Of a stretch of 64,000 nucleotides of DNA, positions 1 through 42,656 are shown piece by piece. Source of the stretch: Balamuthia mandrillaris (Eukaryota); assembly GCA_031835245.2 (NCBI GenBank), contig JAVKOQ020000093.1, positions 1 through 64,000 of the forward strand, written 5' to 3'. A program made the position numbers and the translations under genes. Each line of letters begins with the position of its first letter. Position 1 is the stretch's first letter. Below the pieces are notes generated by a model that did not search any database, was not told where the DNA came from, and saw nothing but the letters and a program-made list of their open reading frames with translations.

Positions 1-934
1 TTTGTTTGTTTGTTTGGGTTGGTTGCTTGGTTGTTCAATTAGTGGTTGGAAGGAAAGTACTAATTCTCTCTTGCTCACTTTGGATGGCTGCAGGCCCAGA
101 ACGAGGGAATCATCCAGGAATTGGGTGATATCGTGGCCAATGGCTTACGCTGCCATGGCAGCATCGTTGAAGGACCTTGGATCGTCAACGGTCTGGAAAA
201 TCCACGGTGGAAGTGGCTGGCGCAATCCATTCGCAAAGGTCATTGGGATGTGTTGCATCAAGCCGCTCTTGGTCTTGATTGTGGCAAAGAAGTCTTGCCG
301 CCGATGGATTCATCACAACAACAACAACTGTTGGATGCTACTTCCTCCCAATCCAGCAGTAGCAGCAGCAGCAGCAGCAGGTTTTATGAGACACCAACTG
401 GAAGTTGGATCTGTAACCTCATTAACGCTGCAGTATATAGCATTCTGAAGGAGGTGCCCTCCTTGGATGAACGGTGTAACCGCAAAGGACGCGTTTTTCA
501 GGGTTCCTTCACCCGAGAAGAACTGTTGTTAGTATATAGACAACTCCCTCTTGGCCTGCAGAAACTTTTTATGTTATTACGGGCCAAAACTATCCAGTAT
601 GTTGCTTCTCTTTCGCTTGGTTGCTTGCTTGCTTGCTTGCATGCAATGCAAGACATGTTATCCTTGCCGCCTCTCTATATTCCCTTTGCTTGTTTACTCA
701 CTCACTCGCCCCCTTGCGTGCTTGCTCATAGTGATAGCGCAACACACGAGGAGAATACCCGTTTGCCACCGCTGCGCCAAGAATGGTTGAACGAGTCATC
801 TTTGGCAGATGCCCTAATGTCATCTATCCCCTCAAAGCCAACAACCAGCAGCCATCGAACCAAAGTGCAACAAGAGATGATATCAGAAGGAGGAGAAGAG
901 GAGGAAGAAGAAGAAGAGGAAGAAGGTGAAGAGC

Positions 935-966
<32 letters not shown>

Positions 967-1456
967 GAAGCAGCAGTGATGGAGGAAGATCCAGAAGCCT
1001 TCTTATATCCCCCATTGGACCGCCAGCAATTAGAGCAGGCAGCCCGAATGGAAGCAATGGTAGAGAAGCAGTATTCCGCCAAGGAAAAGTTGTTCCAATA
1101 CCGTATGAAGCTAACCCATTATTGTCCTCCCTTTACGGTGCAAGAAGCCTTGGCAGAGAACGCGTTGAACTTTGCCAGTCTGAAATCCTTGAAAGGCATG
1201 CGCATTTCTACCAGCATCAACCTTTCTGGACCTTTGGAGGATGTCAAGCGGTTGATGCTTGCTGTTCGTCGCTGCTTGGTGAAGGAAGCGCAACAACATA
1301 ATGCTCCGCTGGAGTTGGATCCTTTGGATAGAAAGCTCTGGAAGACACGCATTCGTCATCCGGTTCGTTCTCAACTGGAGCGAGTGTGGCCGCACATCAC
1401 ACTGGAAAAATCCAGGAAACCTGAGCGACGGCAAAGCAAAAGCAAAAGCAAAAGCA

Positions 1457-1493
<37 letters not shown>

Positions 1494-3546
1494 AAGCAAG
1501 AACAAGAGTAAAGCTAGCAGCAGCTCTGCTACCGCAAACATGCCAGCAGACCCGTTATACAATGCAGCTGCTATTGTGCATGTAAAGGACTTGCCTGAGC
1601 TGGATGCTATATCACCACTCGCGGCTGATTGGTAAGTTGTTTGTTTATTTGTTTATTTGTTTGTTTGTTTGTTTGTTTGTTTGTTTGTTTATTTGTTTGT
1701 TTGTTTCATAGGAAAGGAACAACTCACCACTCACTACCAACCTCCTCCCACTTACTTTCCTTTTAACATTTTCTCTTTCTTTCTCTCTCTTTTTCTTTTT
1801 CTTTGTTTCTCTTTCTTTCTCTCTTTCTTTCTTTCTCTCTTTCTCTCTCTGTCTCTCTCTCTCTCTCTTTCTCTCTCTGTCATTCTCCAGGGATTTACAA
1901 TATGTGGATCAATTGGATAACAAAACATGGCAGCCTATCCATACCACCTCTACCCAAGTCGGCAATACAGAAATGAAGAGGGAAAAGCATCGTGCCAAAC
2001 GCCATTCTGTTAGACACCAAAAAGCCATGGACAAGCTGGCTCAGAAGAGCAGTGAGCTGCAGCAAGATATCTCTGTTGATGCCAGCCCCTGTATTGACTT
2101 GACAGAGTTTTTTGGGCCTGACCTTCGCTCTTTTGCTGCTGTAGACCAGAGTAGTTTGGATGATGCGGAGTTTAGTCTCGATGATGGCAGTATCCTGGGT
2201 GGAGGTGGTGGTGGTGGTGGTGGTGGCGGTGATGATAGTGGAAATGCTACCTCAGCTGGTGTGTTCGCAGACACAATGGACCTAGCAGCAACAGCAGAAA
2301 CAGCGCAGCAAAAACCAAGCTCAACAAAGCGCCCAAGAGCTATGTCTTCCTCTGCTGCCTCTTCCTCTCCTGTGACAAGCAAGAAGCCACGGAAGGCAGA
2401 TGATGATCAACTGTTGTTGAAAAAAAAGAAAAAAAAGCAGCAGCAGAAGCAGACACAGAAGGACAAGGAGAAGCAGAAGCAAAAGCAACAGCAGCAGAAA
2501 AAGAAGAAGGAGAAGGAAAAGGAAAAGGAGAAGCAAAAGCAGAAGCAACAGCAGCAGAAAAAGAAAGAGAAGGAAAAGGAACAAGAGAAGGAGAAGCAGA
2601 AACAACAGCAGAAAAAGAAACAAAAGAAGACTATGGCCACCGAGTCAGAGGAGTCCGAGGCCTCATCTGCATCAGAGGCATCAGATAAGTCGGAGGAGTT
2701 AGAGACCTCATCTGAGTCAGAGGCATCAGATAAGTCAGTAGAGTCAGGCAAGTCAGAGGAAGAGGAGGAAGAGGAAGAGGAAGAACCCAAGAAGACAGAG
2801 AAGCCTGCAACTTCCACCAAGTCTACTGCTCCTAGCATCAGCAGCAGCAGCAGCTCCTCAGATGATGATGATGATGATGAGATGGCCAGTCTCATGAGCC
2901 TTGATATCACTAATGTAGCAGGTAAGAGGCGCTCACGTTTGGTGTTACTTACAACAACTCACATATGCATTAACCACACTTGCATGCATGCATGCATACA
3001 TGCAGATACATGTGATGGTGCTGGAGATAGTAAAACAAAGTCAGATATCCCCAACAAGACAGCTCCTTCACCAGGTGCAATGGTGGATAAAGAGATTGAT
3101 GATTCCATACTGATAGACGTGTTAGAATGTATGTATTTTTATTTTATTTGTCTATTCGAGTTTGGTTCTCTATCTGTCCGTCTGTCTGTCCATTCGTCCG
3201 TCAGTTTTTCTACTAGCTTTGTGTTTTGTCTTTGTTTTGTTGGTTTACTGGTTTTCTGTTTGTTTGTTTGATGTTTATTTGTTTGTTTGTTTGTTTGTTT
3301 GGTTGTTCTCTTCCTCGTGGTGTTTTTTTTTTGTTTTTGGGCTTTTCAGTTGCAATTCTATGCTTATGCAGTGGCGCTCCGTCGGAGCGGCAGCTTTTTA
3401 GCTCCAGTTTTGTTCTTATTATTATTTGTTTTTTTGTTGGTTGCCTTTTTGGTGTTAATTGTTTAGCGCTCCAACGGAGCGCTATCTTTTTGGTGTTTGT
3501 TTACACTGTTATGCCTTTGTGATTTCTCATTCAAGCCTTACTGATT

Positions 3547-3588
<42 letters not shown>

Positions 3589-3660
3589 CTAGTATCAAAA
3601 AAACCTGCTAATGACCCAGCAAAACAAGTAGCAGCAGCAGCAGCACAAAATGAAGATGAG

Positions 3661-3692
<32 letters not shown>

Positions 3693-3981
3693 AAAAGAAA
3701 AAGAAAAAGAAAAAGAAGAACCAAAAGCAGCAGAAGCAGAAGCTGGCGAAAAAAAAGCAGAAAAACAGAAAGAAGAGGAAAAGACAAGTGCTACCAAGAG
3801 CCCTAGCAGCAAATCTACGCGCAAGGCTGCAGCTGCTGCTCAAAAGGCTATTGCTACTGCTGCTGCCAAATCATCTTTGCAAAGAGCTGCTGCTGCCGTG
3901 GCTGCCTCATCTAGCAGTAGCAGCAGCAGCAGCAGAAAAGGAGCCACAACTCGTTCACAACGCCGTAACTCAGGCAGGTGA
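1..3981 (+). CDS. Large orphan multi-exon protein, 5' end outside the window; low-complexity (poly-S/E/Q/K) C-terminal half
   Basis: Phase-consistent GT-AG model: exons 94-596, 732-1631, 1891-2921, 3006-3128, 3593-3981 (TGA 3979-3981). Joins ORFs 121..1635 and 1904..3271. No domain recognised. Confidence 0.7.
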
Positions 3982-4553
3982 TCTCTTTCTCTTTTTAGTT
4001 AGTTATATTAGTTTGGTTGTTTGAGAGAAAGCTTGAGTTAGTTGGTTGATTGGTTGGTTGGTTGGTAGTAATAATACTGGTTAAACAATGGATGGATGGA
4101 TGGATGGATGGATGGATGGTAGAGTAGTGATGGTGGTAGTGGTGATGATGATGGTAAGAGTTGTTAAGCATAGCATGGTGAGTAAAGGAGTGAGTGACAT
4201 GACAAACAAGCAAAAACAGTAGTTAGTATTGTTGCAAATAATAATACTAATAGACAGACAACAAGAAATGTAAACAAACAAAGAATGAAAAGGCAATTAT
4301 AAAAATGAATCTCCTACTACTGCTAGATGTAAAAAGGGAGAAAGAAAGAAAGAAACGACAAGAAAGAAACGACAAGAAACAATCAAGAAAGGAAAGGAAA
4401 GGAAAAACAAAAACAAGTCTCCAAATAGTTCTCATTCTTTATTATTATCTATATCTTCATTCATCCATCAGACTAGACTTACTAACTTCGTGTTTCTTTT
4501 GTTTCCAACATTTGTTGTTTGTGTTTGTGTTTGTGTCTACAATTTACTTGTTT

Positions 4554-4606
<53 letters not shown>

Positions 4607-4610
4607 ACAG

Positions 4611-5022
4611 AAGATAATATATCTATTCCTGTTGTCTTTGACAAACCATCACTACTAAACAACAACAACAACAACAAAGAGGCAGCAATAGCAACAACAG
4701 TAACAGCAATAGAAGAGGATGATGAAGTAACGATTGTCTCAATATCATCACCCTCATCCTCATCAACAACATCTTTCAATCATCACTTTGCTCCCTATCA
4801 GGCTCTCAACACTCGGTCATTCGTTCGCAAGCAGTTTTTGGATCATTATTTGTTAAAAACACCACCACCAGCAACTGTTGTTGCTTCTGCTCCTGTTATT
4901 GTTGTTGATAATCCTGCAGAGCTTTTTTCACCTCCTCCGTTTTCTGCATCACCCTTTTCATCCACTACCACTACCATCACCGCCACTTCATCATTTACTC
5001 AATCACAACCACAACAACAACG

Positions 5023-5067
<45 letters not shown>

Positions 5068-5968
5068 GCAACAACAACAACAATCTTTAGAAAGGATGAC
5101 CTCTTCTTCTTCTTGTTCTTCTTCTTCTTTTTCTTCTTCTTCTTCTTCTGCTTGTTCTTCTTCTTCTTCTTCTGCTTGTTCCCCTTCTTCTCCTCCTCCT
5201 CCTTCTTCTTTTTCTTCTCTCCCTTTTTCTCCTCCTCCTTCTTCTTCTTCTTCTTCTTCTTCTTCTTTTTCTTCTTCTTCTTCAAATTCAGAGTCCTTTG
5301 TCTTTGAGAACAATGATGGTGATGTTATGGATAGCAACGGTGATAGTAATTTATCAGTATCATCATCATCTTCATTAAGAGGAAGAAGAGGAGAAGTAGA
5401 AACAGAGGAAGATGCAAGAAGCAAAACAACAACCCCATCAACATTGATTGATTTGTTGTTGTTGACTGAAGACGAAAAAGAAGATGAAGAAGAACACAAA
5501 GAAGAAAAACAAGGAAAAAAGAGAAAAATAGAGAAACAACAAAATAGAGCTAGAACAAATGATGATAATGATGACGACGATACTACACATGGCAGCAGTA
5601 GTAGTAATGGTGGTGGTGGTGATGGTGGAGGAAGACGTCTTTCTCGTGCTATCACATTGATGAACCGTTTGACAGAAGAGCGGTGGACAGAGTTGACGGC
5701 AGTGACGAGTCGATGGAGCCCTTCTACCCAACGTAAACATGCCTGGACTTTGGCCATCTGGGAAGCACATTGTGCGCATCATAAATGTTTGCCAGCTCTT
5801 CCTTTGAATCTCCAACGTCATAACGTAGGAGCCTTTGTTCAATGGTTGATTTTGGATGTGGGTTATGCCTTGAGCTCTGTGCGTGATGTCATGATTGCCA
5901 GTCTTTATCGTTTGCATGATGAAAGTATCCAACAACAGCTTGACTCCCTTTCTGCATCCTCCTCCTTC

Positions 5969-6003
<35 letters not shown>

Positions 6004-6472
6004 CTCCTCCTCTGTTTCCTCCATGATCTCTTCAACTCCAGCATCATCATCATGTACCACTTCTTTCCCACCTTCTCCTTTATCCAGAACCCTTCTTGGT
6101 GATGGTGTCACTCGAGCAGCAACAACAGGAGCGACAGGACGCACTACAGCATTGACAACAACCTCAGACCATGCTTACTTGTTGTTGCTAAAAAACCAAA
6201 TGGATGCCATCAAAGATCAAGTCAAACAGGCCATTCGACATTGCAAAAGAGCCAAACCTTCCTGTTCTAGCAAACAATTGTGCAAAGACGCATGTTTGTT
6301 AGATGATGTCTTACATATTATCGCATCCACTCCAGATGGACTGGTGAGCAAAGCTGCTGAAGCCAGTTGTTGGTTACACAGTGTTTGTACTGGTGCCAGA
6401 GCCATTACAGCTACAAACATTCGTTTGGGTGATATTGTGGCATTTCGACCTAAACTTTCATCCTCCTCTTTC

Positions 6473-6526
<54 letters not shown>

Positions 6527-7678
6527 AATGACAACATCAGCTGCCATCACCAAGAGGATACATTTTCTGCTCCTCCTCTTTATTTCCTTTCATTGCGCCA
6601 ACAAGTCACTAAAGGAATACCAAATCATTGGAATCATGTCGTTACATTTGAAGGTTATTTAACACCACCACCACCACTACCATCATCATCATCATCACGA
6701 GGATCATCTTCTTCACCATCACCATCACCATCATCACCACTTAGGACTGCTGCTGCTACGACCTCTGCTGCTGTCACCACCCCTGCTGCCACCACATCAA
6801 CAACATCAACACCAAGCATTTGTCTTGGAGATTTTATTTACTGGTTAAACAAGCATCTGTTATGCAAGCATGGTTTGGATTTGCGCGAGTTTCACAACTG
6901 GCGCTTGACAGACAAACAAAAACAAACATCATTATGGGGATGGTCACGCGATACTTTAAATGCCAAGTTGCAAGATCGGGCTGTTCGGGCTGGTTATCCT
7001 GAAGGATTGTTTTCCTTTCACTCCTTGCGTGCTGGCTTCCTTTGCACTGCCTTGATCTTGGAGGGACTGCAGGAAGGTCACAGTCAGAACAATGTACTGG
7101 ATACTACTGCCCTTATTGCAGGTTGGGTACCTCGTGGTAGATCCCAGCAAGTCTACGTCAAGGATACATTAAAACGTGCTATTGTGGCCAATCGCTTGGT
7201 CAGCAATGTTACCACCACTCATCCTCATTCTTCTTCTTCTTCTTCTTCTTCTTCATCATCATCTTCATCCTTTATTGCAACTACCACTGCTGATTATCAT
7301 CCCCCTCGACATTGCGGTTCGTTACTGCTCATCTGATTTTTGTTTTTTCTTTTGTTTTTTCTTTGGCTGGGCTGGCTGCCTGACCAGCGTCAATAAATCA
7401 CCACCACCACCACCACCACCACCACTATCACTTGATGGACTGACTTGCTCTCTTTTTGGTTCTTTTTATTCTCACTCCCTTGTATACATACAGTTATTGC
7501 TCCAGAGCTAGTTACCAAAGAAGCATTTCACAATCTATCCCCAGATGCTTTGCAACAATCCAACTGGTCTGCAGATACCAACTATCAGAGTTTTATTCAT
7601 GCTGTTCGCCAACGGTTTGTTTGTTTGTGTTTGTTTGTTTGTTTTGTTTGCATAGTATCCACCACCATCACCACTATC

Positions 7679-7709
<31 letters not shown>

Positions 7710-8872
7710 CTATCTATTTATCTATTTATCTATCCAGTCAGTTTTTAGCTTGTTTGTTTGCTTGCTTGCATTCAAAAATGCACCCTTAGACCTAGCGCTC
7801 AGCTAGAACGCACAGGTTTATTGTGACAGCAGCAACATTCATAGTCTAAACAATAATTGTTATAATTGGTCTTAGTTCATTTGTTCTTCTTTTAACATTC
7901 ACTCACACTTTGTTTTTTGTCTCTTTTCCCTTTTTCTTTCTTTTCCTCTTTCTTTCTCTCACTTTCTCTTTCTTTCTTCTTCTTCTTTTACACTGCTTCT
8001 TTAGGTGGTTCATGAAATGAACAGATTTGCCAACCAAAGATCAACAAATACGATTTTATCGCTCCTTGTGGCTTGAATGTTGTACCGCTTGGGTAGAAAA
8101 TCATCCAGATGAGTTTGACAAGGATGTGCTAGCTGAAGCTGCAGCCACCTATGAGGCCAAAAACAAATCTCCTCTGCGTTGGCCCAATATTCATCGCCAG
8201 CTGTGCCGTCAACACATCTCTGGCATTCTACAAAGCTTTTTCAGTGGCTTGAATGAGCTGGTGGATGAGTTTGTAGCTCCTGTACTTCCCAAGTTGGTCA
8301 ACGGATCACCCATTCACAAAGCATTCCTCACCCCTCGTCAAGAGCAATCATCCTCCTCCCTTGCTTCTCTCGATGATGATGATGATGATGACAAGAGTCC
8401 TGACTCAAAAAAACAAACACCACGACGACAACGAGTTCGCAGAGCGCTTCAGCGACAACAATTGTTATCCAGTCGACTCAAATATCAGAAGAATGGCCAT
8501 CAACAACGGATTGCTTGGCAGGCACCAGAAATCCGTAGACTTGTCACTTGGCGCTTGCGTGATGGATGGTCTTGGTTGGAGATTGCCAAACACTTGCCTA
8601 CCCAACGTCGAACCAACAATGATTGCTATGATAAATGGCGCAATCTCCTCACAGAATTCTCCAACAATCTCGATGCTTTGAAGGCCAAATACTTGATGGC
8701 CCATGATGAGGACTTTGACAAATCGGATGATGATGATAATGACAACACTTCCTCCCCATCATCATCTCCTACTTTTACTACCACTACAGTTATATCCATC
8801 TTGGATGAAGAGGAAGAGACAGAGGAGAATGATGATGAAGATGATGATGATATTATGATTATATCTTGTTAG
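4611..8872 (+). CDS. Tyrosine recombinase (Cre/DIRS-like phage-integrase family) fused to a C-terminal Myb/SANT domain
   Basis: Exons 4611-7316, 7494-7614, 7790-7815 (26-nt micro-exon) and 8025-8872, with matching intron phases (1,2,1). True start unresolved: an upstream exon or the ATG at 5096. SAM-like core-binding domain at ~5714-5917 (WSPSTQRKH...AFVQWL...GYALSSVRDVMIASLYRLH). Catalytic residues: R in TGAR 6398, K in TKG 6611, HSLR 7019-7030, W in AGW 7124, Y 7154. Myb at ~8507-8650: WQAPEIRRL...WLEIAKHLPTQRRTNNDCYDKWRNL. Confidence 0.88.
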
Positions 8873-9004
8873 ATTATATAGGTATTTCTATACGAAAATT
8901 GAAAAAATTGCTACTTTGACCCACTTTATCCGTTAGACTTATAGACTTAGAGTTTTATAGAATGGACCATGGGGAGTTGAATGCCGTAGGTTCTGAGTAC
9001 CCGC

Positions 9005-9017
9005 CCCTAACCCTAAC
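9005..9017 (-). repeat. Short interstitial telomere-like repeat (CCCTAA)2C
   Basis: Sequence CCCTAACCCTAAC read directly; it is (TTAGGG)n on the minus strand. Confidence 0.6.
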
Positions 9018-9905
9018 TTGTTGGAAAACTCCAACATAATAGCCCTTCTTCTCTTCCTGTCGACCTCTCCCTCATGTCTGTCGACCTGAGGAAACTTCTC
9101 GGTGTCCAATTTCTCCTTTCTTGAACTTCTCCTTTCTTGTTGTTTTCTCTCTCTGCCCTTTTATGCTGATATTCTCTGTTCTTCTTTTTTGGATAATTGT
9201 TTTAGCTTAAATACTGCCTCTCCTTGCTTCTTCTTCTTTTTCCTCTCGGGACAACTTACAACAAAACACAAGATACTTTACTATCACTTGTACTCTTCAC
9301 TTTTAGTAAATTAAGTTCGGGTCTTGTAATTACTTTGTCTCCGCCATCATTCCCGTTCTTATTTTACAACAACCTAACCTAGAGCCTTGAAGGTTGCCAT
9401 GATCCACTGCCACCACTACCTCGAGCAGGCCCTTTACCTCATTGACAAGGCCATTCCCTACTTCAACAGCCCCCAAGGAATTCTTCGGATTTTTTGTAAA
9501 TAAAGTTTATTATTACACTAGCAGAGTGAGGTTTTTGGGGAAGAAAAACGGCAAGGCGGCCAACTCTGCTGCAGTTGTGTGGGTATGCAAGAGCTCATAG
9601 CCCCAAATCGAGGTGTAGAAAGAAGGAGGAATCCATGCAGCCATCTTGACAGGAAGATGGGTTCCTTTTTTCATCATGCGTTTTTTCATTTCCTCCCAGA
9701 GGCTTGAAAATACAAAACCATCAACTTCTTGCAGCACACAAACAACGTCCTCCCACTTCACCACATTCATGTTTGTTTCCCTTTTAATTTTTTCTTTGTC
9801 CTTTTTGGCAAATTATCCCCTGAGTTGGCGGATTTGCCATCTGTGCCACCATTTTGGCATTGTACAGGCTGCGATAAAAAAGAGAAAGCAACAACAACAA
9901 CAACG

Positions 9906-10451
9906 ATGCGCAAACGCACGGAAACGGTGGGCGTCGCCCTGGCGCGCCAGGGCGACCTGGAGCAGCTGCGCCGTCGCTGCCGCCGGCCGCTGGGGCAGGA
10001 AGTCGCCAAGGCGGCGGCGTTGGGTGGCCACGTGGACGTCCTTCAGTGGCTGTGGGAGGAGAGGGGCAGCGCGGAGTGCTGGGACTGCTGCGGCGTGCCG
10101 GTGAGCACCGAGGCCGCCCGCGGGGGGCACGTCCGCGTGCTCGAGTGGATCAAGAAACGCGACCTATCGTGGGACGCGTCGGCGTGCAGGGCCGCGGCCG
10201 GGGAGGGCCATCTCGAGGTGCTGCGCTGGCTGCAGGAGGATCCCAGGCACTCTCCCTGCCCGTGGCGTGAGTCCTACTGCCAGGCCGCGGCCCAAGGCGG
10301 CCACCTGGCCGTGCTGCAGTGGCTGCGGTCGAGGGACCCGCCATGCCCGTGGGACAGGGGCGCCCTGGACTCGGCCGTCCGCGGGGGCCACGAGGAGGTG
10401 GCGCGATGGATAGCGGAACAGGAGCCGCGATGGGGCGGAGCGTTTGTGTGA
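9906..10451 (+). CDS. Ankyrin-repeat protein (AAxGGHLEVLxWL...CPWD type), possibly 5'-truncated
   Basis: Repeats AALGGHVDVLQWL, AARGGHVRVLEWI, AAGEGHLEVLRWL, AAQGGHLAVLQWL...CPWD. Intronless and visibly GC-rich. Confidence 0.85.
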   Translation: MRKRTETVGVALARQGDLEQLRRRCRRPLGQEVAKAAALGGHVDVLQWLWEERGSAECWDCCGVPVSTEAARGGHVRVLEWIKKRDLSWDASACRAAAGEGHLEVLRWLQEDPRHSPCPWRESYCQAAAQGGHLAVLQWLRSRDPPCPWDRGALDSAVRGGHEEVARWIAEQEPRWGGAFV

Positions 10452-10479
10452 GTAATGAATAAACGGAGAGGATCCAGGT

Positions 10480-10936
10480 CACGGAGTGGGGCAAAGTGGG
10501 GTGGATATGCTGGAGGGGCAATGCTGTTGCAACTGCAAGCAGCTGAACATCGCCGTCCCGCTGCCTCCAGCTCCTCTGTCATCTGTGGGGCTGCTTCAAT
10601 GCGCATCACCTCAGGCACAAAGTAAGCGAATGTCCACACCCGCAGCGCTGCATAGATGCCGTCCGCAATGAGAATCAAGCGACGGCTCTCTCGGTGAGGC
10701 CAGACAGCCCACGTGGCCACCGGAAGCAAGGCCGAGAGGGCAACGTGCATCGGGATCCAGAATCTTTTCCTGTCCACGCCTCCATGTTGCGGCTGGAACA
10801 CCGCGAGGTTTGGCCATGCCCTACATACCACCGCATGTTCGTAGATGCCTCCACCCAGCTCCATTGCGGCAACAAGCAGGGAGCCCATCAACGCGCCGCC
10901 GCCCAATGTTTGCCTCCAACCAGCGGCACTGCTCAT
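10480..10936 (-). pseudogene. DUF1772/anthrone-oxygenase-like small membrane protein with an apparently frameshifted C-terminus
   Basis: GGGIYEHAVV...WP...QPQHGGVDRKRFWIPMH...ALRVWTFAYFVP resembles bacterial DUF1772-like proteins. After EAAGRR (~10550) the expected last hydrophobic helix (QLLAVATAL) continues in another frame. Confidence 0.55.
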
Positions 10937-12584
10937 CTTGGTTTTCTCCTTCTTCTTCGAAAAGCTTGTCTGCAAAAATATATGTCCTGTTGTCGACGGT
11001 AACGCTGTCCTTTTCTTTGTGTTGGAGGATTGGAAAGCATCTAGCTAGTCACGGGGGGCAAATGGGTGCGTGAAAGCGTTTTCAATGTGGCTGGTCTTCG
11101 TTGATTGATGTGTGCTGCTGTTAGGGAGAGTCCAAAATGTATCACACCGGAAGGATCAGCCGCGATGGCTGTGCGCCAGAGAAGCCAAGCGGCACACTGC
11201 AAGGACTGTGATGGCTCCCTTCCTACTCTTCTGTCTTCTTGTTGTTCTGCTTCTTCTTCTTCTTCTTCTTCTTCTTCTTCTTCTTCTTCTTCTTCTTCTT
11301 CTTCTTCTTCTTCTTCTTCTTCTTCCTTCTCTCCTCCTTCTTTTTCTTCTTGACTTTTACCACTATCTCAATGTTCGTTCTTTCTTTCTTCTCTCTTTAC
11401 ACCAGGTTCCATTCTTTCTTTATCTGATCACACATGCTTACTTTTGCTCGTATCACACTTTCTCCACCATTCTGTTACGCCGCTTTTGGACAAGGTTTGT
11501 AAGCTCTTTGCTGTTTTTTGTTGAGAAGACCATCTTTAACAGTGTTTTTTTTGTTCCAGTTCGTGGTATCCCTCCAACCATTTCTTCAGCTTCGTCCTCA
11601 GTGCTGTTGTGATATTTCTCATGTCTGCCACGACTGCTTTTATGGAAACCTACACAATATCTGAAGTGGGCTTTTTCCGTGTTCTTCTTCGTCTTCTTGT
11701 TCTTCCTCTTCTTGTTCTTGTTCTTGTTCTTCTTCTTCTTCTTCTTCTCCTTCTCCTTCTCCTTCTTCTTCTTCTTCTTCTTCTTCTTCTTCTTCTTCTT
11801 CTTTTCTCCTTCTTCTTTTCTCCTTCTTCTTTTCTCCTTCTTCTTCTTTATTTACAATGCTATTTTTATCTTATTTCTTCAATAGGTGCCTTACTACTCT
11901 CATAGCAACAAGTACATGATGTATACTGTAGGCTCCGTTTTCTATGCCATCTATTTTTATGTATCCTTTCCCATGTTTTACAGGTTCGTTATTCTGCTCC
12001 TTCCTCTTCCTCTTCTCGCCGCTGAAATCCTTTTCATATGCTGGGTGCAACTCTGCCTTATTGCTTTGTTAAAGGATTGAAGAGGAAGCAGCAGACAAAT
12101 GGGATTTGCAACGAGTTGTCCTCGACGCGCTGGCTGCAGGCATGGCGGTCATGCTCTTTCTTGACTTTTGGCGCCTCCTTCTGCCCTCCATCCAACCTGC
12201 CACTGATGACGCTGGTTCTTTGCCGCTTACCGCACCGTGCTTCCAACTGGAATGGCATCCCTTACTTTGACCATTGACAAACGCTTCCCTCTTTCTGCTC
12301 CCCTCAAGAGGGCATGTTGTTTTTCGAAGTTTCGTTGTGCTTTGATCTTTGGGCAGCCTTCTCTTTCCCTGTCCTCTGGGGCCTGCTACTCAAAACCAGG
12401 CACTAGACCACTGTTCTCTTCTTTTTGCTCCTGAAAGTTGGTGGTACAGTCCCTGGTTTTGAATAGCAGTCTTCTCACAATGTTTGATGCCTCTCTCTTT
12501 TCGCTCTTCTCTCCTCTCTCTCTTTTTGCTGGTGATAAAACGAGTTTAAAGCAGACGAGTTAAATTATGAGAAAAAGAAAACAA

Positions 12585-15500
12585 TTACTGCCTGGGAGCA
12601 CCACGACCTCTCTTGACAGTGGACCATCCATCATCCTCTTCGCCAGAGGGCTCACGATCTCCCCTTCCTCTCCCTTCATCTCCACCACGGGAAGGAGGAC
12701 CGCCAGCACCACCACGTCTCCATTCGTCTCCACCGCGAGTAGGAGGGCCGCCACGTCTGTCTCTGTCATCTCTCCACTCATCACGAGGACCAGCGCCACG
12801 TCGAACAGGCGGACGGTACTCTTCCCTCTCTCGTCCAGCGGGAGGGCGGTACTCTTCCCTCTCTCGTCCAGCAGGAGGGCGGTACTCTTCTCTATCTCTT
12901 CCGACAGGGGGGCGGTACTCTTCTCTGTCTCTCTCCCGCTCCCTGTCTCTCCCGACGGGTGGGCGATACTCGTCTCTGTCCCTTCCAGCTGGGGTACGGT
13001 ACTCCTCCCTGTCACGGCCGCCGCGAGGAGGACGGTACTCTTCCCTATCTCTTCCGACAGGAGGACGGTACTCGTCTCTATCTCGGCCAACAGGGGGACG
13101 GTACTCATCTCCGCGTCTTGCGGCGGGAGGTCGCCTTTCCCATCTGCGTTCTTCCTCAGGCTCTTCTCGAGTGGGGGAAGGACCACGTCTCCAACCTTCG
13201 GCTTCCGCTCTGGCAGAGGGAGGGCGGCGAAGTGGCGGACCTTCTTCTCTTTCGCTTTCTCTTTCTCTTTCGGGTGGCATGCCACCAGCAGCTCGTCGCT
13301 TGGCCTCCTCCTGCTCGCGCAATAGCCTTCTCTTCTCCTCCATGCGCTTGATCTTTTGGAGGCGCTCCTCCTCCACTCTTTGTTCCTCTGCTCGGCGCAG
13401 CTCCTCCTCCCGACGAGACTGTTCCTCTCTCTGTTGCTCCTCTGCCTCAGCGCGTTGTTGCTCCTCTGCCTCACGCTCGCGAGCACGATCCTGTTGCTCG
13501 GACCTATGTTTTTCCTGTTGTTGTCGTCGTGCCTCCTCCTCCTGGCGGCGTTTTTCCTGGGCAACTGCCAGCTTGGCTCGAATTTCCACCAGACGTTTGT
13601 CCTGCTCGGCCTTGGCCACCTCGTAGACGGCCTGTCGGCGCTTCATAAGCTCTTCCTCAAAGGCCTTGCGGTAGGGTTGCATCTTAGAGAGGCGCCTCTT
13701 CTCCTCCAGCTTCTTGATGTGGGCCGCTTCCTGAGTCTTGTGGAATTGTTGGCGCTGCTCCTCGTAGAGGGCACGGTGGGCCTCTTGCTGCTTGTCAAAG
13801 GCGGCTCGAAGGAGAGGTTGCTCTTCTTCCCTCAGGGCTCGTTCCAGATGGTCCATGCGCTTGGCTAAGTTGGTTATCTTGTGCTCCATTTCCTTCTGCG
13901 CTTTATTGATCTTGCGCTGCTTCTCCTTGAGGATCTCTTGCGCGTCGACTTGTTCGTTTTCCAGCTTACGTAACAAGGACTGGGCAAGGGAGGCATGCTT
14001 GGTGGAGCTCTGCTGGAGGGCAACCAGCTGCTCGTGAACTTCCTTCGTGGTCTGTTCCTTGGCGACTGCCTTCTTCTTTTCCTCCTCCCTGAGCTTGGCC
14101 TCCCTCTCCTTGATCTGCGCTTCTTTGGCCTTGCGGGCTTCTTCCTCCTTGCGGGCAGCTTCTTCGGCGGCCTTGGCGCGAAGCTTGGCGAGCTGCTCCT
14201 TGATTTCCTTGCGCTTCTCGATGATCCTCTTTCTTTCCAGGATCCTCTGGTTCTCCTTGGCCAAGTTGCGGAGGACACGCTGGAAAAGGGCTTGCCTCTT
14301 CTGAAGCTGCTCGACGGGATCCTGTGGCTTTACGCGGTCCACCACCACTTGCAAATTGCGGCCGAGGTTGGTCAGCTGACTTCTCAACTGGTCCGACTCG
14401 AGTGTCTGTCCTCCAAAGTGGAGGGCTCCCTTCTGGTGGTCCAAGCGTGCGTCTACATAGCGCTTGTGCACGATCTCGACAAGACTTCTCTCCAGCTCAG
14501 GGCCTTGCACGAATGGAGCCAGCTCAGCCAACTTCTTCAGCTGAACGGTTTGGTAGACCTGGGAGAGCTGTTGCAGCAAACGCACAAATAGGACTCGTTC
14601 CAGCGGCTCCCTGTACTTCTGCAACAGCTCGTGGGAGCCGATGAACTCGAGCGTGGAGGAGACGGAGCGCGAAAATTCCAACGGGTGGAACTTCTCCTCC
14701 ATTTCGTGGTAGAGGTCTCGCAGCTCGGGGAAGACGTGGGCGGGGAGGTTGCGTGCCACGAGCTCCGACAACAACACGTCGCGCTGAGGAGTGAAGGTAG
14801 GTCCCAGGAGGGCGGCCAGGCGCGCAGTCTTCTCCTGTTGGCCGTCATCCATGTCAAGGAAGCTCTCGTGGGGCTTCGCAGTATCGGGGGGAATGCTCAA
14901 GGCAGAGACCAATACGGCGGAGGCCATAGCACGGAGGCGTTCCTCATCAGCGGCGCCTGAGGTGCGAAGCACCATATAGTGCTTGAACCAAGCAAAGGAG
15001 TGGAGGAGATAATTCTTAGCCACCCAAAAGATCTGGGTAAGCTTCTCGTAGTAGGTGGCCATGAGTTCCGGCTCTGGGGCTTTCTTGGAGAAGGTCATGA
15101 GGCCGTGGATGTCTTCCGCCGTGCGGAACGCCTCTTGCCAGAGCTCCAAGTTGCTTGCCACGTTCAGCTGCTTGAACCTGATCTCCATGTGGAGAAGAAG
15201 GCTCTCTGCATTGGACAGGCTGATGGCATTGGTTTGGTGGCTGTACTTGCTGATGTTAACCAAGTGGGTGCGCAAGATTTCGCTCAGCCTCTTGAACTCA
15301 GTGAAGCGCTTGTACTTCTCGCAAAACTCAAAGGCCTTCATACAAGTCTCCTGATAGAGCTTTTCCAGCTTGTGGTTGTTGCGCAGAATGTCCAGTACCG
15401 TGCGGTAGGCTTCCCACAGGAACTTGAGCCAGGGTGTAACCAAAGCTCTGTCCGTTCGGTCCTTGGCCTCCACCAGCCCTTCCGTCGAGGTCTCCTCAGA

Positions 15501-16211
15501 CTCCAGGTCCTCGATGTTGAGCGTGATCTTCTCTGCCTTTTCCTGTGCCCCTTTGGCTTGTTGTTCGGCCTGTTCAAGAAACGCTTTGATCACAACTCCC
15601 AAGGAGGCGATGTTGGCTTGTTGGCAAATACCTCGGTATTGGTGCAGTCCATCTTTGGCTTCCTTGCCGCGTCTAAGCTCTACGCAAAGGTTGATATATT
15701 TCAACTGGTTTTTTTTAACCGCCAAGTTAGAGAAGGACAGAGAGAGACAGAGAGACAGAGAGACAGAGAGACAGAGAGACAGAGAGACAGAGAGAGACAG
15801 AGAGACAGAGAGAGAAAGAGTCGAAGCGGAGTGAGAAAACAAAGGGCGAAAAAAGAACCATGAGGGCCTCGTGAGACTTTTGCCATGTGCGGTGACGCTT
15901 GGAGGTAATAACGCCGCGCAAAGCATTGAGGGCTTCTTCTCTGTGTCCGACCTCCAAAAACTCTGCAGCGGGTAGAGTCAGTGGACAGGAAAAGCAGCGG
16001 ATAGGAGCGAAAAAAAAAATCAAGAAGATATAACAAAAGAACAATGTTTTGCTCCACCAACACAAAAGAACGAATCGCGTGTTGCACAAAAATAATCACA
16101 CTGAAACAAAACCAAAAGCAAAAAAAAAAATAATAATAAGTAGAAAGAAATGGGACACTGACCCTGCGCTCTTTTGAGAGCATTCTCAGGTTTTACGAAA
16201 CGGCTGTGCAT
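12585..16211 (-). CDS. EIF3A: Eukaryotic translation initiation factor 3 subunit A
   Basis: Exons 16211-16163, 15962-15859, 15704-12585. Motifs KPENALKRA, VTPWLKFLWEAYRTVLDILRNN and ELWQEAFRTAEDIHGL; PCI region, coiled coil and C-terminal R/D/P repeats. Confidence 0.97.
12805..13115 (-). repeat. Coding tandem repeat (~30-33 bp unit) encoding GRDREEYRPP in the eIF3a C-terminus
   Basis: About nine EYRPP/EYRTP units visible in the translation. Confidence 0.85.
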
Positions 16212-16679
16212 TATTCTTTCTTCGGGGGTGGTGAGAGACCGACGAAAAAAAAAATCTGAAAAAAAAAAAAAAAGAAGATCGCCCGCTGGGCAGAGAGAAC
16301 GAGGAAGGAAGAAGGAAAACAAGAGAACTCGAGCGAAGAGCGGGACTCCCTTCTGCTTCTTTCTTTTTCCCCTTTTCTTCTTTTCTTTTTATTTTTATTT
16401 TTTTTTCTTTGGCCACAGAAATAAAATGGGCCCACACTGGAATAGGAACGTCTTTCATTGCCAGCCCTTCGACCTGGCCTTTCTAGCGGGCGTACGGACA
16501 GTTTTTGTGGGATACCGTCTCCCCAGTTGGATCAAGAAACGACCAGGAATGCCTGAGGGTTTACCTCGTAGCACTTGGATTTTTTTTCGCTTCGCTCCGT
16601 TATTTTTTTCACTCCAAAAAGAAAAGAAAGAGAGAGCGAATTCTTCTGTTTTTGTTGTGTGTGAAGAAAAAAAAAAAAG

Positions 16680-18854
16680 ATGCTTGGAGAGGAGCCCGCA
16701 CTGGTGGAGAAAGGTGAGGAGGGCGTCGGGCTGGGCGCCGAGGTGGAGGAGGTGGAGGAAGTGCTGGAGGGCGTGGAGGCCACCACCCTCCCCAACTTTC
16801 GCCTGCAGGGCAGCAACGCCGCTGTCTTTGAGGAGGAGGACGAGGACGGCTACTACGAGGAGGACTACCGCGACCATAAGGTGGCCGTCATCCCAGAGAC
16901 CGTCAAGCACTTCCTGCAGTACTTTTACAAGCAGATCAAGGCCAAGAACACGGACGAGATCGTGTCCATCTACGACTCCACTTTCAGCAAGCTCTCTGAG
17001 CGCTTCTACAAGAACAGCCTGTGGCCAGTGGACAGCCAGATTGCTCCTCTTGTTGACAATGGTTTGTTTTTTTTTTCGCTCACACCCTTCCTCCTTCTCA
17101 CCACTCTTCTCTCTCTTTTTTTTTTCTCCCTATTATCTCTTCTCCTCTCGCTCTTCTCTTCTCTGCTCCGTTTTCTCACTGTCTTTCTTGTTTGCGAAAA
17201 CCACACAGACAAGTCTTTCCTCATTCTTTACAAAGAGCTTTACTTCCGTCACATCTATTCCAAACGCGAGGTCCCAACCCTTCAACAGCGTTTCGCTTCT
17301 TGGCAAAATTACTCTGAGCTCTTTGACTTTTTGTTAGGTAGGTTTTGCCAAGCTCATCTCTCCTTTCCCCTCTTGCTTCTGAGTGTTTCTCTTCTCTCCG
17401 ACTCCATTTGTCGCTTTCTCTCTCCTTTGCTCTCCTCTCTCTCTCTCCCCTCATTCTTACCTCTTTTTCCCTCGATCAGATCCGGAGACACAGAATCAAA
17501 TAGACTTGCCACTGCAGTGGTTGTGGAACATCATCGATGAGTTCATCTACCAATTCCAGACCTTCTGCCAGAACCGCTCCAAGCTCTCCAATAAGTCCCC
17601 CGAAGAGATCCAAATGCTCAAAGATAATCCTCAGGTGTGGAACATCAATGCCGTCCTCAACTACCTCGAACGTTTTGTCCAAGTCTCCAACATTCACCAA
17701 ATCCTCAAACAAGAAGCCGAAGAAGAGGGTTCTTCTTCCTCCCATAATAACCGAAAATACACTCTCCTCGAAGCGTTGGGCTACTTCAGTCTCATTGGCT
17801 TGCTCCGTGTTCACTGCTTGCTCGGGGACTATCATCTTGCCCTACAGACCCTCCAACCCATCGACATGAGCAAGAAAGGTCTCTTTGCGCGAGTAGCCGC
17901 CTGCCAAATTACTCTCTACTACTACGTCGGCTTTGCTTACATGATGCTGCGGCGCTACGTGGATGCAGCCAGGCTCTTCACCAACATCCTCATCTACATT
18001 GGCAGGACCAAGCAGTACCACACTCGCTCCTACCAGTACGAGCAGATCTTGAAGAAGAACAAGGAGATTTACAACTTGCTCGCCATCGTGGTTTCTCTCA
18101 GCCCTCAAAAGATTGGCGATGATAACATTCACTCCCAGTTGCGCGAGAAGTGTGGCGAACACATGGCTCGCATCCAAAGAGGGTACGTCTCCTCGCTTCC
18201 ACTCCTTTTTCTTTCTCTGTCTATTCTTCCTCTTGATTGACTTTTTCTGTGAATTGGTGCTGATAATTTTGTTGCACAGAGACAACTCGGCCTACGCTCA
18301 GCTCTTCGGTACTGCTTGCCCCAAGTTCATCAGTGTTGCCCCTCCTGATTATGACGACTCCCATGACCACCACCAGGTTTTATTTCTCCTTATCTCTTTT
18401 TCTTCCTCTCTCTCTTTCAACCACTAATTTTTGTAAACCAACGTAGGATGCGCGCAACTTGCAAACCAGCGTATTCATGGAAGAAGTTCAACAACAGAGC
18501 CTGATCCCAACCGTACGCAGCTACCTGAAGCTCTACTCTACCATCCCAGTCAGCAAGCTGGCATCCTTCGTGGACAAGGATGAGGCCACTTTCCGCGCTT
18601 TCCTTCTCCGCACCAAACACAAGACGCACAACCTTGTGTGGTCGTCAGGAGAACCCCTGCGAGGCGAGTGGACACTCGGCACGGACGTCATGTTCCACAT
18701 GGACCAGGATGACATGGTGCACATTGCAGACACGAAGATTGCGCGAAGGTTTGGCGACTATTTCATCCGCCACATCAACAAGTTTGAGCACATCATCAAC
18801 CAGGTGCAACGAGGTCCTTCTTCTTCTGGTTACCGTGGTGGTTACAGAGGATGA
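16680..18854 (+). CDS. EIF3L: Eukaryotic translation initiation factor 3 subunit L
   Basis: Exons 16680-17061, 17209-17337, 17480-18182, 18280-18376, 18447-18854. Motifs LYKELYFRHIY, WLWNIIDEFIYQFQ, LGYFSLIGLLRVHCLLGDY, RSYLKLYSTI and RRFGDYFIRHINK. Confidence 0.96.
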
Positions 18855-18949
18855 GTAGTCAACGAACTTGTAGGGAATGGGTTGTTTCTTTTTCTCACAC
18901 ACAAAAAAATAGAGCGTCGTCTCTTCAACACAACCTTTTTACAGTGTTT

Positions 18950-18998
<49 letters not shown>

Positions 18999-19072
18999 GA
19001 ATGCAAGGAACGAGAAAGAATGTGACAGCCAATTCATTAACAGGTGGGCAAATAAAACAACAAAAACTCACG

Positions 19073-19662
19073 ATGAGACTCGCAGTGTTGGCTTTCATCT
19101 GTTTCGCTCTCGTTGGCTTCTTTGCTAGCTTCTCTTCGGGTTTTTACATGGCTTCCTCTCACGAAAGAAAGTTGCTTGCACTCGCTCACTTTGCTCCTCT
19201 TCTTTCTCGTTCTTGTTGCCCTTCTTCATCTTCCTCCTTTCTGTGCTTTTGCTGTTATTATCAGCGCAGGACTGCTACGTCTCCCTCACTCCCTACGCTA
19301 ACGCTTCCTGCCTGGGAGAACCTGCTGACTCGGGCTGTGTCACCGAGCTGGCGAGCGACGGCCAGTGCAACCCCGTAGAAACCGGACAGAGCTCTCGCAT
19401 CCACTGCGACTTCAAGAACGGCACCTTCTACTCCTCTGCCCACTGCAACGGCACGGCAACAGACTTTGCCGATCAACAGTGCGTGGAGGTGCCCTCCTTG
19501 GGGGTCTACATAAAGGCGCAGTGGGACATGGACTGTGATGGCCACATCATCGATGGTGGTGGTAGTTCCAGCTCGTCTGGTGGAGGAGATGATGGCGACG
19601 ATTCTCCTGCCACCTTCCTTTCTGCTTCCTCATGGTGGAGGGTGGTGTTTGTGTTGCTTTGA
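19073..19662 (+). CDS. Small secreted Cys-rich protein, probably GPI-anchored
   Basis: Signal peptide MRLAVLAFICFALVGFFASFSS, one intron, Cys-rich body with N-glycosylation sequons, G/S/D linker and hydrophobic C-terminus. Confidence 0.7.
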
Positions 19663-19852
19663 GCAGAAGAAAGGGAAAGAAGGGAAGGGAAGGGAAGGAA
19701 GGGAAGGAAGGAAGGGAATGCAAAGAAAAGGTTTTACAGTGGGATAACAAAAGAATAGAAAAACAAACAAAAGCAAAAACACGCCATCCACGCTCACAAA
19801 CAGATGCCTATCGCTTTTGTTTCGTGTTGGGGGAAAAAAGAGAGACCAAACT

Positions 19853-22614
<2,762 letters not shown>

Positions 22615-40759: not shown

Positions 40760-42481
40760 TCATTTTGTGGAATAGACACGAGAAGCCCATTTCACCAGAA
40801 AGTCATTCACAAGGCCAGGTCCAAGGGTGTCACGGGCGAGGGCCAACCCACCGTACATCGCCACCGAGCCTTGGCCCACGTACCTCTCCGGGTGCGCCTT
40901 CACCCTCTCCACCGCTCTCTCCAAATCCTCCAAGAACTTCTCCTTGAGCCTTGCATGACTGGGCATGATGGTCATGTGAATCGAAGGCGGCAACTGGTTC
41001 CTTTCGATGTGCCAACCCGCTGCTCCTTCCGCTTTGCTGGCCTCCTCCAACTCGTCCGCCACCGCCAAGACATCCACTCGGGAGGAGGAACATGCCTCGA
41101 TGGCAAGGATGGACATGGCTGGCTGGCCAACCACTTGCAGGTCCTCGGACAGCCGCTCCTGGATGCCCTCTCTGAGGAAGCGTGTCGTGTCCATGAGCTG
41201 CTTGACCGTCTCTTTGAAGCCCTCCACGCCGAGCCCCATGAGAGCAGCCCATGCTGCCGCAATGGATCCTCCAGCACGCGTCCCCAACAGAGAGGGAGAG
41301 ACAAAGAGACCTCCAGGCCACTCGCTGTAGGCGGAGTACTGATACTTCCTCAACCCGGTGTCGCGGTAGAGGACCACGCTGGCTCCTTTGGCTGCGAAGC
41401 CGTACTTGTGAACGTCCATGGACAAGGAGGTCACTCCCTCCACACGAAAGTCGAACCGAGGCAAGTCCTCCTCCCTCTCGGGAAGCCCGCACCGCTGCCT
41501 CTCCTCCGGAGACAGGAAGCGGAACCACGGCAAGACGAAGCCGCCGATGCAGCTGTCGACGTGCAGCAGGAGTCCGCGAGACAAGGCCAGCTCGGCCAAG
41601 GCAGGAATGGGGTCCATCACCCCGTGAGGGTAGCTCGGCGCGCTGCCGACCAGCGCGATGGTGTTGGGAGTGATGGCAGCGGACATGGCCTGCACGTCCG
41701 CCTCCCTGGTGTCGGGCAGGACGGCCACCCACTTCATCTTCATGCCCAACAGCTGCCCCGCCTTCTCAAAAGCTGGGTGCGCCGTGGAAGGCAGCACCAC
41801 CTCGGCCTGCCCTTTGGTTCTTCTGTTGGCGGCAGCAAAGTCACGAGCGGCCTTCATGGCACAGATGATGCTCTCCGTGCCGCCAGAGGTCATGTTGCCG
41901 CAGACTCCCTCCACGCCGCCCATCATCCATCGACACATGGCCACCACCTCCACCTCGAAGCGGCGCAGGTTCTGGAAGACCACCGGGTTCAGCCCGTTCT
42001 GGTGCATGAAGAGGGTGAAGGCGCGCTCCACCAAGAGCTTGTGCCCGGCCTCGAGAGGAGTATAGACGTAGGCAAAGGCCTTGCCTTCCTCTCCCAGCGC
42101 TCTGTCCTCGTCGGCCAGAGCTTCCATCAGAGCTACGAGTTCCTCTCTGTCCATGCCTCGTTCCGGCACACGTTCCAAGAAGTTGTGTTCCTCTTCAGCC
42201 CCTTGGGTGCTCCTCCTCCTCCGAGGGAACATGTCGCGAACGATCTCCTCGACCTGGGCGTCGAGCTGGTGGTCGATGGCCTTGCGAAGGGGAGGCAGGG
42301 AGGCGGCGCTGCCGAGGAGCCTCTTGGCGGCAACTCCTCCGTTGCGAACCAGGTACAAAGCGGCAGCCGCCAGAGTGAGGGCCACCCATGCATGCTCGGC
42401 TCTGCGAAGGAGAGGGTTGTTGTGGTCGAGGAACCGGCCGAAGAGAGAGAGGAAAGAAGATGAAAGGCTTGGGCTCGACAT
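40760..42481 (-). CDS. SGPL1: Sphingosine-1-phosphate lyase (PLP-dependent, group II decarboxylase fold)
   Basis: TSGGTESI, TAHPAFEKAG, GSAPSYPHGVMDPI, HVDSCIGGF, PLP-lysine motif SMDVHKYG and WPGGLFVSPSLLGTRAG. N-terminal membrane anchor; intronless. Confidence 0.93.
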   Translation of the reverse strand: MSSPSLSSSFLSLFGRFLDHNNPLLRRAEHAWVALTLAAAALYLVRNGGVAAKRLLGSAASLPPLRKAIDHQLDAQVEEIVRDMFPRRRRSTQGAEEEHNFLERVPERGMDREELVALMEALADEDRALGEEGKAFAYVYTPLEAGHKLLVERAFTLFMHQNGLNPVVFQNLRRFEVEVVAMCRWMMGGVEGVCGNMTSGGTESIICAMKAARDFAAANRRTKGQAEVVLPSTAHPAFEKAGQLLGMKMKWVAVLPDTREADVQAMSAAITPNTIALVGSAPSYPHGVMDPIPALAELALSRGLLLHVDSCIGGFVLPWFRFLSPEERQRCGLPEREEDLPRFDFRVEGVTSLSMDVHKYGFAAKGASVVLYRDTGLRKYQYSAYSEWPGGLFVSPSLLGTRAGGSIAAAWAALMGLGVEGFKETVKQLMDTTRFLREGIQERLSEDLQVVGQPAMSILAIEACSSSRVDVLAVADELEEASKAEGAAGWHIERNQLPPSIHMTIMPSHARLKEKFLEDLERAVERVKAHPERYVGQGSVAMYGGLALARDTLGPGLVNDFLVKWASRVYSTK

Positions 42482-42656
42482 GTGACTTTGCAACTTTCTT
42501 TCTTTATGTGAGAAAAAAAAAATGGAAAAGTTTGAAAAGAGAGAAGAAAGCTATAGTAGCTACTATAGAAAATGGTGGTTTACTGGCTTCTCCTTGCTGT
42601 GATGCTTGTATGCAAGGACCTTTATCTTTGCTGGATGCATGGATGCACAACAGGTG

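What the first reader, a model, noticed from the sequence alone, without database searches (positions are those of the whole stretch)
4611..8872. Spliced, intact tyrosine recombinase fused to a telobox-like Myb domain: candidate new class of YR DNA element
Seen: a SAM-like core-binding domain and the full catalytic set R(6398)-K(6611)-HSLR(7019)-W(7124)-Y(7154), with poly-S/N/T insertions lying only between motifs. Three GT-AG introns with matching phases join this to a Myb/SANT repeat ending RTNNDCYDKWRNL. Established: HxxR...GW...Y with Trp in place of the second His is the Cre/DIRS/Ngaro style of YR. Cryptons are intron-containing YR DNA transposons without RT, and fungal CryptonF carries a GCR1_C DNA-binding domain. 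TRF/telobox Myb domains end in RTxVxLKD(K/R)WR(N/T). Inference: I do not know of a described YR-Myb fusion element, so this may be a new Crypton-like lineage, or a domesticated recombinase whose Myb domain supplies target specificity. Caveat: the telobox Lys is Tyr here, and Reb1/DMTF1-type Mybs have a similar helix.
Basis: partly seen in the sequence, partly recalled or inferred. Interest (0 to 1): 0.88.

Follow-up and report, generated by a model that had tools for sequence, protein, structure and literature searches.

The report
Telomere-repeat-targeting recombinase–Myb DNA transposons
This amoeba gene joins a Cre-like DNA-recombining enzyme to a Myb DNA-binding domain and belongs to a widespread protist family whose copies often sit against short telomere repeats, so it is likely a DNA transposon that inserts into telomere sequence, although this particular copy may carry a premature stop.

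Summary
The tyrosine recombinase (YR) and the Myb domain are real; the fusion is a family trait: 37 related proteins and 11 metagenomic loci were found, several encoding YR–linker–Myb in one intronless frame. A relative folds like Cre (Z 16). In contigs read with the ciliate code, 3.2-kb one-gene units of six families lie head-to-tail in varying order, separated by 2–7 TTGGGG repeats, and each starts with telomeric hexamer–N6–ACT(C/T). The same end motif occurs once in the window, on (TTAGGG)2, 132 bp past the stop; TTAGGG is the published telomere repeat of Balamuthia, host of the nearest relatives. No reverse transcriptase or terminal inverted repeats were found. Best reading: a Crypton-like DNA transposon lineage that recombines into telomeric repeats, likely aided by its Myb (about 0.7). 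Corrections: 'intact' is doubtful, since a simpler two-intron splice fits paralogues slightly better and contains a TGA before the Myb; this copy fails the telobox consensus (12 of 31 relatives meet it); RNA gave no junction test. No description was found in ten literature searches; Repbase was not searchable.

The parts
4611..7316 (+). Exon with low-complexity N-terminus, core-binding and catalytic YR domains (core about 5630-7201); translation start unresolved
   Evidence: fold of paralogue
6398..7156 (+). Catalytic set R6398, K6611, H7019-x-x-R7028, W7124, Y7154
   Evidence: HxxR..W-x9-Y kept in 36 of 37 family rows
7317..7493 (+). Intron 1 (GT-AG, phase 1), predicted
   Evidence: flanking exon homology
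7494..7614 (+). Exon 2, start of conserved helical linker
7790..7815 (+).
8005..8872 (+).
8513..8650 (+). Single Myb repeat; third helix RTNNDCYDKWRNL departs from the telobox consensus at V and K
8989..9004 (-). Element end motif N6-ACTC-N2-AACC directly after the telomeric tract; same spacing as ciliate-code and L003 ends (attachment-site-like, inferred)
9005..9016 (-). (TTAGGG)2, the only such 12-mer in 64 kb even at 2 mismatches; inferred element/host junction
   Evidence: telomere repeat from 10.1101/2025.02.25.640156
1..9004 (.). Compositional island (lower GC3, GTTT-type intron repeats) taken as the element body; other end lies outside the window or was not found
64..3981 (+). Multi-exon low-complexity gene of unknown family inside the island; possible cargo or 5' part of the same gene
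   Evidence: no family or relative found

Best explanation
The locus is one copy, possibly disabled by a premature stop, of a protist family of YR-Myb genes that are likely RT-less DNA transposons inserting into telomeric repeats. Shown: the YR-linker-Myb architecture, intact catalytic motifs, telomeric tracts at unit junctions, a shared end motif, mixed-family head-to-tail arrays. Inferred: the YR would excise the unit as a circle by recombining the short telomeric cores at its two ends; the circle junction (telomeric arm, about 7-bp spacer, imperfect inverted arm (C/T)ACTC) would act as the donor site; one crossover with a chromosomal (TTAGGG)n or (TTGGGG)n tract would integrate it, and repeated rounds would stack different families. 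The C-terminal Myb would tether the complex to telomeric DNA as an accessory binding domain. In the window the junction is at 9004/9005, the gene points toward it, and the element is at least 9 kb.
For: Arrays: unit A (3193 bp, 2-3 differences among three contigs) is followed by three different families B, C, D in L006, L007, L008; D is followed by E in L010; another unit precedes F in L011; all 10 junction tracts are 12-42 bp of TTGGGG; families are 47-66% identical. End motif hexamer-N6-ACT(C/T) at 8 of 9 distinct ends; the pattern matches once in the window, 0.03 expected, right after the gene and 10 times in L006-L011. L005 has (CCCTAA)3 239 bp after its stop, same orientation as the window; L003 (3412-bp circular or tandem unit) has a degenerate tract with the motif; L001 lies 7.7 kb from a (TTAGGG)14 contig end. 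Microsatellite style changes at 9 kb (GTTT runs 7 vs 1, CT runs 1 vs 25) and GC3 is 0.40-0.46 vs 0.59-0.77 in four host genes. Several Balamuthia families with 5 and 17 cluster members; annotated P0002 ends in 105 of 106 residues of the P0001-type last exon, suggesting neighbouring copies of two families. Other copies in run X12 differ at 19 codons, 16 synonymous vs 22% expected. Telobox consensus in 12 of 31 Myb helices, absent from all six TTGGGG-associated families. Precedent for mechanism: Crypton insertion by recombination of a short terminal donor with a like target (PMC9977147); telomere-specific nimavirus YRs (PMC10871703).
Against: Only one end is seen in the window and the tract is just two repeats, beside housekeeping genes; no empty site or second Balamuthia junction could be examined (no genome held). 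The end pattern was written after seeing the window end. L005 lacks the ACT(C/T) motif; L001 and L004 show no tract near the gene (L004 is cut at its 3' end). The arrays come from what is probably one organism and could include assembly joins at repeats. Gene orientation relative to the G-strand differs (toward the junction in window and L005, away in L003 and ciliate-code units). Whole-domain Myb scores do not separate TRF from c-Myb, and this copy and L005 lack the telobox although they abut TTAGGG. No activity, circle or transcript was shown.
Confidence: 0.7

Rival explanations
1. A Crypton-like DNA transposon with a short G-rich target (a few bases) and no Myb-driven telomere preference; telomeric tracts are hit because they repeat that core, and the Myb binds the element's own ends or regulates it.
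For: Cryptons use 4-6-bp direct repeats (PMC3212892). Telobox is missing in the window copy and L005, both beside TTAGGG; 2 of 6 lineages with DNA context show no adjacent tract.
Against: All 10 ciliate-code junctions are multi-repeat telomeric tracts; telobox consensus in 12 of 31 helices is hard to explain otherwise.
Confidence: 0.17
2. The YR-Myb gene is the integrase of a larger element (virus-like or cargo-carrying) in Balamuthia, like telomere-inserting nimaviruses, and the small units are its minimal derivatives.
For: The island is at least 9 kb with an unknown upstream gene; nimavirus precedent.
Against: Complete 3.2-3.4-kb units hold only this gene; no relatives in viral contigs or phages; upstream gene has introns and no viral family hit.
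Confidence: 0.06
3. A domesticated host recombinase acting in telomere maintenance or chromosome healing, single-copy and immobile.
For: Introns, strong purifying selection, telobox in many members, wide spread in protists.
Against: Several divergent families per host, shuffled tandem order, conserved end motif, likely nonsense codon here; Balamuthia, Monocercomonoides and ciliate-code sequences form several host-specific clusters rather than one orthologue each (quick tree).
Confidence: 0.05
4. The YR of a DIRS/Ngaro-type retroelement whose RT lies elsewhere.
For: HxxR..W..Y pattern is shared with these elements (recalled); an ALOG/YR cluster is among Atlas look-alikes at 0.92 with only 135 of 256 shared features.
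Against: No RT or RNase H family in upstream frames or in the rest of complete units; introns; no terminal inverted repeats in units A and D.
Confidence: 0.02

Closest known systems
Crypton DNA transposons (CryptonF, S, A, I; PMC3212892) and microsatellite-specific CryptonV (one sentence in PMC8869645)
   Same: YR as only enzyme, no RT, no terminal inverted repeats, short direct repeat at both ends, C-terminal DNA-binding domain as in CryptonF, introns possible.
   Different: Myb instead of GCR1_C; no GCR1_C, DUF3504 or NDC10_II hit in 45 proteins scanned; telomeric target and mixed arrays; hosts are amoebae, oxymonads and ciliate-code protists. CryptonV sequences could not be compared.
Telomere-inserting endogenous nimaviruses (PMC10871703)
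   Same: YR-associated insertion into telomeric repeats, concatemers or episomes.
   Different: 300-kb viruses; their YR has a C2H2 zinc and SAM-like domain, 'myb' does not occur in that paper; no viral genes here.
TRAS/SART and HeT-A/TART/TAHRE retrotransposons (PMC5537684)
   Same: Insertion in telomeric repeats, head-to-tail arrays, both orientations across families; TRAS carries a Myb domain suggested to aid targeting.
   Different: They are non-LTR retroelements with RT and APE endonuclease; this family has YR only.
Cre recombinase / loxP
   Same: Closest solved fold over both domains (Z 16.0), Trp at the second His position (recalled for Cre), inverted arms around a 6-8-bp spacer.
   Different: 12-14% identity; extra helical linker and Myb; site arms are telomeric and imperfect.
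Ciliate Tec, TBE and Paramecium ITm elements
   Same: Ciliate elements with YR genes or telomeric repeats at ends (PMC5405496).
   Different: Those carry a DDE transposase and several ORFs; TBE ends are inverted (recalled); here one ORF and direct, same-strand tracts. Tec3 was not compared.

Membership tests
Tyrosine recombinase superfamily | R-K-HxxR-H/W-Y catalytic set | tested here: met
   (36 of 37 rows)
Tyrosine recombinase superfamily | Core-binding plus catalytic fold | tested here: met
   paralogue P0001 model vs Cre; PF00589 in relatives
Crypton (broad sense) | YR without RT or DDE transposase | tested here: met
   for complete small units and window frames
Crypton (broad sense) | No terminal inverted repeats; short direct repeats at both ends | tested here: met
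   units A and D; in the window only one end is visible
Crypton (broad sense) | YR groups with a described Crypton clade | not testable with these tools
   No Crypton reference sequences available; the deep profile search never ran; Atlas gives only distant look-alikes
CryptonF | C-terminal GCR1_C domain | tested here: not met
   Myb in that position, no GCR1_C hit
CryptonV | Sequence relationship and microsatellite target | not testable with these tools
   Only a one-sentence description seen; Repbase not available
DIRS/Ngaro/VIPER YR retrotransposons | RT/RNase H ORF in the element | tested here: not met
   the Balamuthia element's far end is outside the window
Telobox (TRF-type) Myb | VxxKDxxR in helix 3 (PMC6175992), this copy | tested here: not met
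Telobox (TRF-type) Myb | VxxKDxxR in helix 3, family | tested here: met
   12 of 31 rows with a detected helix, including both Balamuthia paralogues
Telobox (TRF-type) Myb | Whole domain closer to TRF than to c-Myb repeats | tested here: inconclusive
   similar per-repeat scores
Telobox (TRF-type) Myb | Binds double-stranded telomeric DNA | not testable with these tools
   needs binding assay
Telomere-inserting nimavirus YR elements | Large viral genome with core genes | tested here: not met
   one-gene 3.2-3.4-kb units; no viral-contig relatives

The most novel reading that the evidence does not exclude
A new superfamily-level lineage of eukaryotic DNA transposons that use a Cre-like recombinase fused to a telomere-reading Myb domain to integrate into telomeric repeats and build mixed head-to-tail arrays at chromosome ends: a DNA-recombinase counterpart of TRAS/SART and HeT-A/TART, with the Myb recognition helix tracking the host repeat (telobox with TTAGGG, a different helix with TTGGGG).
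Probability: 0.5. Interest if true: 0.92.

Novelty: new variant of a known kind. Interest (0 to 1): 0.82.

Why it matters
Telomere-colonising elements are known mainly as retrotransposons and a few large viruses. A one-gene DNA element doing this by site-specific recombination would add a new route, and recombination between such ends could excise, lengthen or rearrange chromosome ends in protists. It offers a compact, testable system (about 520-600 aa, 3.2 kb) for how an accessory Myb domain retargets a recombinase to a non-palindromic repeat, with natural TTAGGG and TTGGGG variants for comparison, and it may bear on the transposon origin of DNA-binding domains.

Tried and rejected
RNA: no RNA holder listed. 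Three same-species RNA runs, 3-5% of each read, laid on 5300-7900 gave 7, 13 and 0 reads, nearly all low-complexity, one pair on the core, no junction; this is no test of expression, and the last junction lay outside the laid stretch. No whole genome held; cluster members could not be looked up; the deep representative search was never accepted (9 tries), nor the wide fold search (3 tries). Sequence search of PDB missed the YR (one XerD row at E 0.47). No relatives in viral contigs, prokaryote genomes or phages; plasmid integrases only at 22-27% identity, best E 2e-4 among rows shown; end motifs absent from viral contigs. NCBIfam: 1 of 34 rows hits XerA. The upstream gene found no family, Atlas hit or relative in loci. 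No Rfam hit at 8030-12000. The tree is a quick one without outgroup, 10 short proteins left out, so it says nothing on origin. Rejected: protelomerase (no such Pfam hit, protelomerase absent from listed fold rows, which is inconclusive; units show no hairpin signs); chance for (CCCTAA)2 (unique in 64 kb and carrying the family end motif).

Full report
Observation. The YR exon hits no Pfam family and the Myb is weak in this copy. Searching with the exon found two Balamuthia mandrillaris proteins (45% and 43% identity, both with a C-terminal Myb) and two from Monocercomonoides exilis; the spliced model is colinear with P0001 from YR to Myb. The host is therefore likely Balamuthia or a relative (inference; the window copy groups with the two paralogues at full support in a quick tree).

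The family. Profile searches raised the set to 37 proteins and 11 metagenomic loci. Myb hits were found in 2 of 4, 11 of 11 and 17 of 30 proteins scanned; most of the rest are fragments. L001, L003, L004, L005 and six families read with table 6 encode the fusion without introns, so the fusion does not depend on a splice model. HxxR..W-x9-Y is kept in 36 of 37 rows, 10 short proteins left out. An AlphaFold model of P0001 (mean pLDDT 77) matches Cre best (Foldseek E 3e-5; Z 16.0, rmsd 4.4, 274 residues). Low-depth contigs of another isolate differ at 19 codons, 16 synonymous against 22% expected (P 1e-8).

Is this copy intact? Exon 2 is homologous to intronless relatives, the 26-bp micro-exon is not clearly so. 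One phase-2 intron 7615-8004 has a much better acceptor, scores 2.4 bits higher on a profile built without the window rows, and is favoured by both paralogues, but by only 13 of 27 relatives overall. In that reading the last exon begins W-F-M-K-stop-T-D-L, opposite FKQRQDL and FQSRTDL in the paralogues; the annotated proteins have three different residues before this Phe, which suggests an exon boundary there (inferred from protein models). I put about 0.65 on the copy carrying a nonsense codon (or a sequence error) between YR and Myb. RNA reads gave no junction.

The ends. L006-L011 use TAA/TAG in frame and never TGA and carry TTGGGG tracts, so they likely come from one ciliate (repeat assignment recalled). 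They consist of 3.2-kb units with one gene and an AT-rich remainder without Pfam families beyond low-complexity noise. Unit A is nearly identical in three contigs but is followed by three different families; D is followed by E; all 10 junctions are 12-42 bp of TTGGGG on the sense strand. No terminal inverted repeats were found in A or D. Each unit starts telomeric hexamer-N6-ACT(C/T); L003 and the window share this, 8 of 9 distinct ends, L005 being the miss. In L003 the junction is a clean inverted pair around 7 bp (GAGTTG, CAACTC), the layout of a YR site (arms around a 6-8-bp spacer, PMC3212892). In the window, (CCCTAA)2 at 9005-9016 is the only such 12-mer at up to 2 mismatches, lies 132 bp after the stop, and the pattern matches only there, 0.03 expected (the pattern was written knowing this end). 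TTAGGG is the Balamuthia telomere repeat (10.1101/2025.02.25.640156, passages). Sequence style changes at this point. L005 has (CCCTAA)3 239 bp after its stop. Of six lineages with DNA context, four have a tract within 1 kb of the gene; L001 is 7.7 kb from a telomeric contig end with no nearby tract, and L004 shows none but is cut. P0002's annotated tail is 105 of 106 residues identical to P0001's last exon, hinting at adjacent copies of two families in Balamuthia too.

The Myb. The telobox consensus VxxKDxxR (PMC6175992, passages) is met by 12 of 31 detected helices, including both paralogues, L003 and L004; it is absent from all six TTGGGG-associated families, from L005 and from this copy. 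Whole-domain scores do not separate TRF from c-Myb. Binding is untested.

Mechanism. Shown: architecture, catalytic motifs, junction tracts, end motif, mixed arrays. Inferred: excision to a circle, integration by one crossover in a short telomeric core, Myb tethering. Active Cryptons insert by recombination between a short terminal donor and a like target (PMC9977147, passages). Weak points are the single visible end here, possible assembly joins in the arrays, opposite gene orientation between lineages and the missing telobox in two TTAGGG-flanked copies.

Comparison. It works like a Crypton and meets the broad definition (YR only, no inverted repeats, short direct repeats), but not CryptonF, and clade membership could not be tested. 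Known analogues are microsatellite-specific CryptonV (PMC8869645, passages), telomere-specific nimavirus YRs without a mention of Myb (PMC10871703, passages) and TRAS, a telomeric retrotransposon with a Myb (PMC5537684, passages). I read parts 1-2 of 7 and passages of PMC3212892 ('myb' 0 times) and passages of PMC3537659, PMC6681497, PMC5405496, PMC9528979 and PMC13236599. Ten searches listed no paper describing a YR-Myb element; subscription journals, Repbase and all supplements were not seen and may hold one. An earlier AI note on another genome reports a YR-telobox fusion; it is a lead, not support.

Verdict. Real, a family rather than a one-off, and likely a telomere-repeat-targeting YR DNA transposon lineage (0.7); new variant of a known kind, with an even chance of deserving its own superfamily. 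Interest 0.82.

Noticed in passing
window 9906-10451 (+): Intronless ankyrin-repeat gene with GC3 0.89, far above its neighbours; resembles repeat families shared by amoebae and giant viruses (recalled).
   Followed up: no
window 9017-9800 (+): Coding-like spliced stretches begin immediately at the telomeric tract with no start or acceptor, as if a host gene were cut at the junction; no Pfam hit.
   Followed up: partly
window 3974-4610 (+): A GC-AG intron here would join the upstream low-complexity gene in frame to the YR exon; read by eye, untested.
   Followed up: no
L003:2735-2944; proteins P0007-P0009, P0035: Several family members carry an N-terminal Cys-rich zinc-finger-like motif (CxxC..YCSxxC) not seen in the window copy.
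   Followed up: no
L004:3250-4834: The YR-Myb frame continues for over 500 residues past a perfect telobox helix; that extension was not scanned.
   Followed up: no
L005:3599-3671 (-): tRNA-Met 250 bp beyond the (CCCTAA)3 tract.
   Followed up: no
L007:1-14, L008:1-26, L009:1-9, L010:1-9: Four of five array contigs start with short AT-rich sequence unlike the known unit ends, running into GGGGTT, as expected where an array joins a chromosome end; too short to be sure.
   Followed up: partly
window 12585-22000, 40760-42550, 57848-60118: Ordinary eukaryotic housekeeping genes by eye (eIF3a-, eIF3L-, CDC48-, sphingosine-phosphate-lyase- and bicarbonate-transporter-like; labels recalled, from no call), starting 3.5 kb from the junction.
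   Followed up: no
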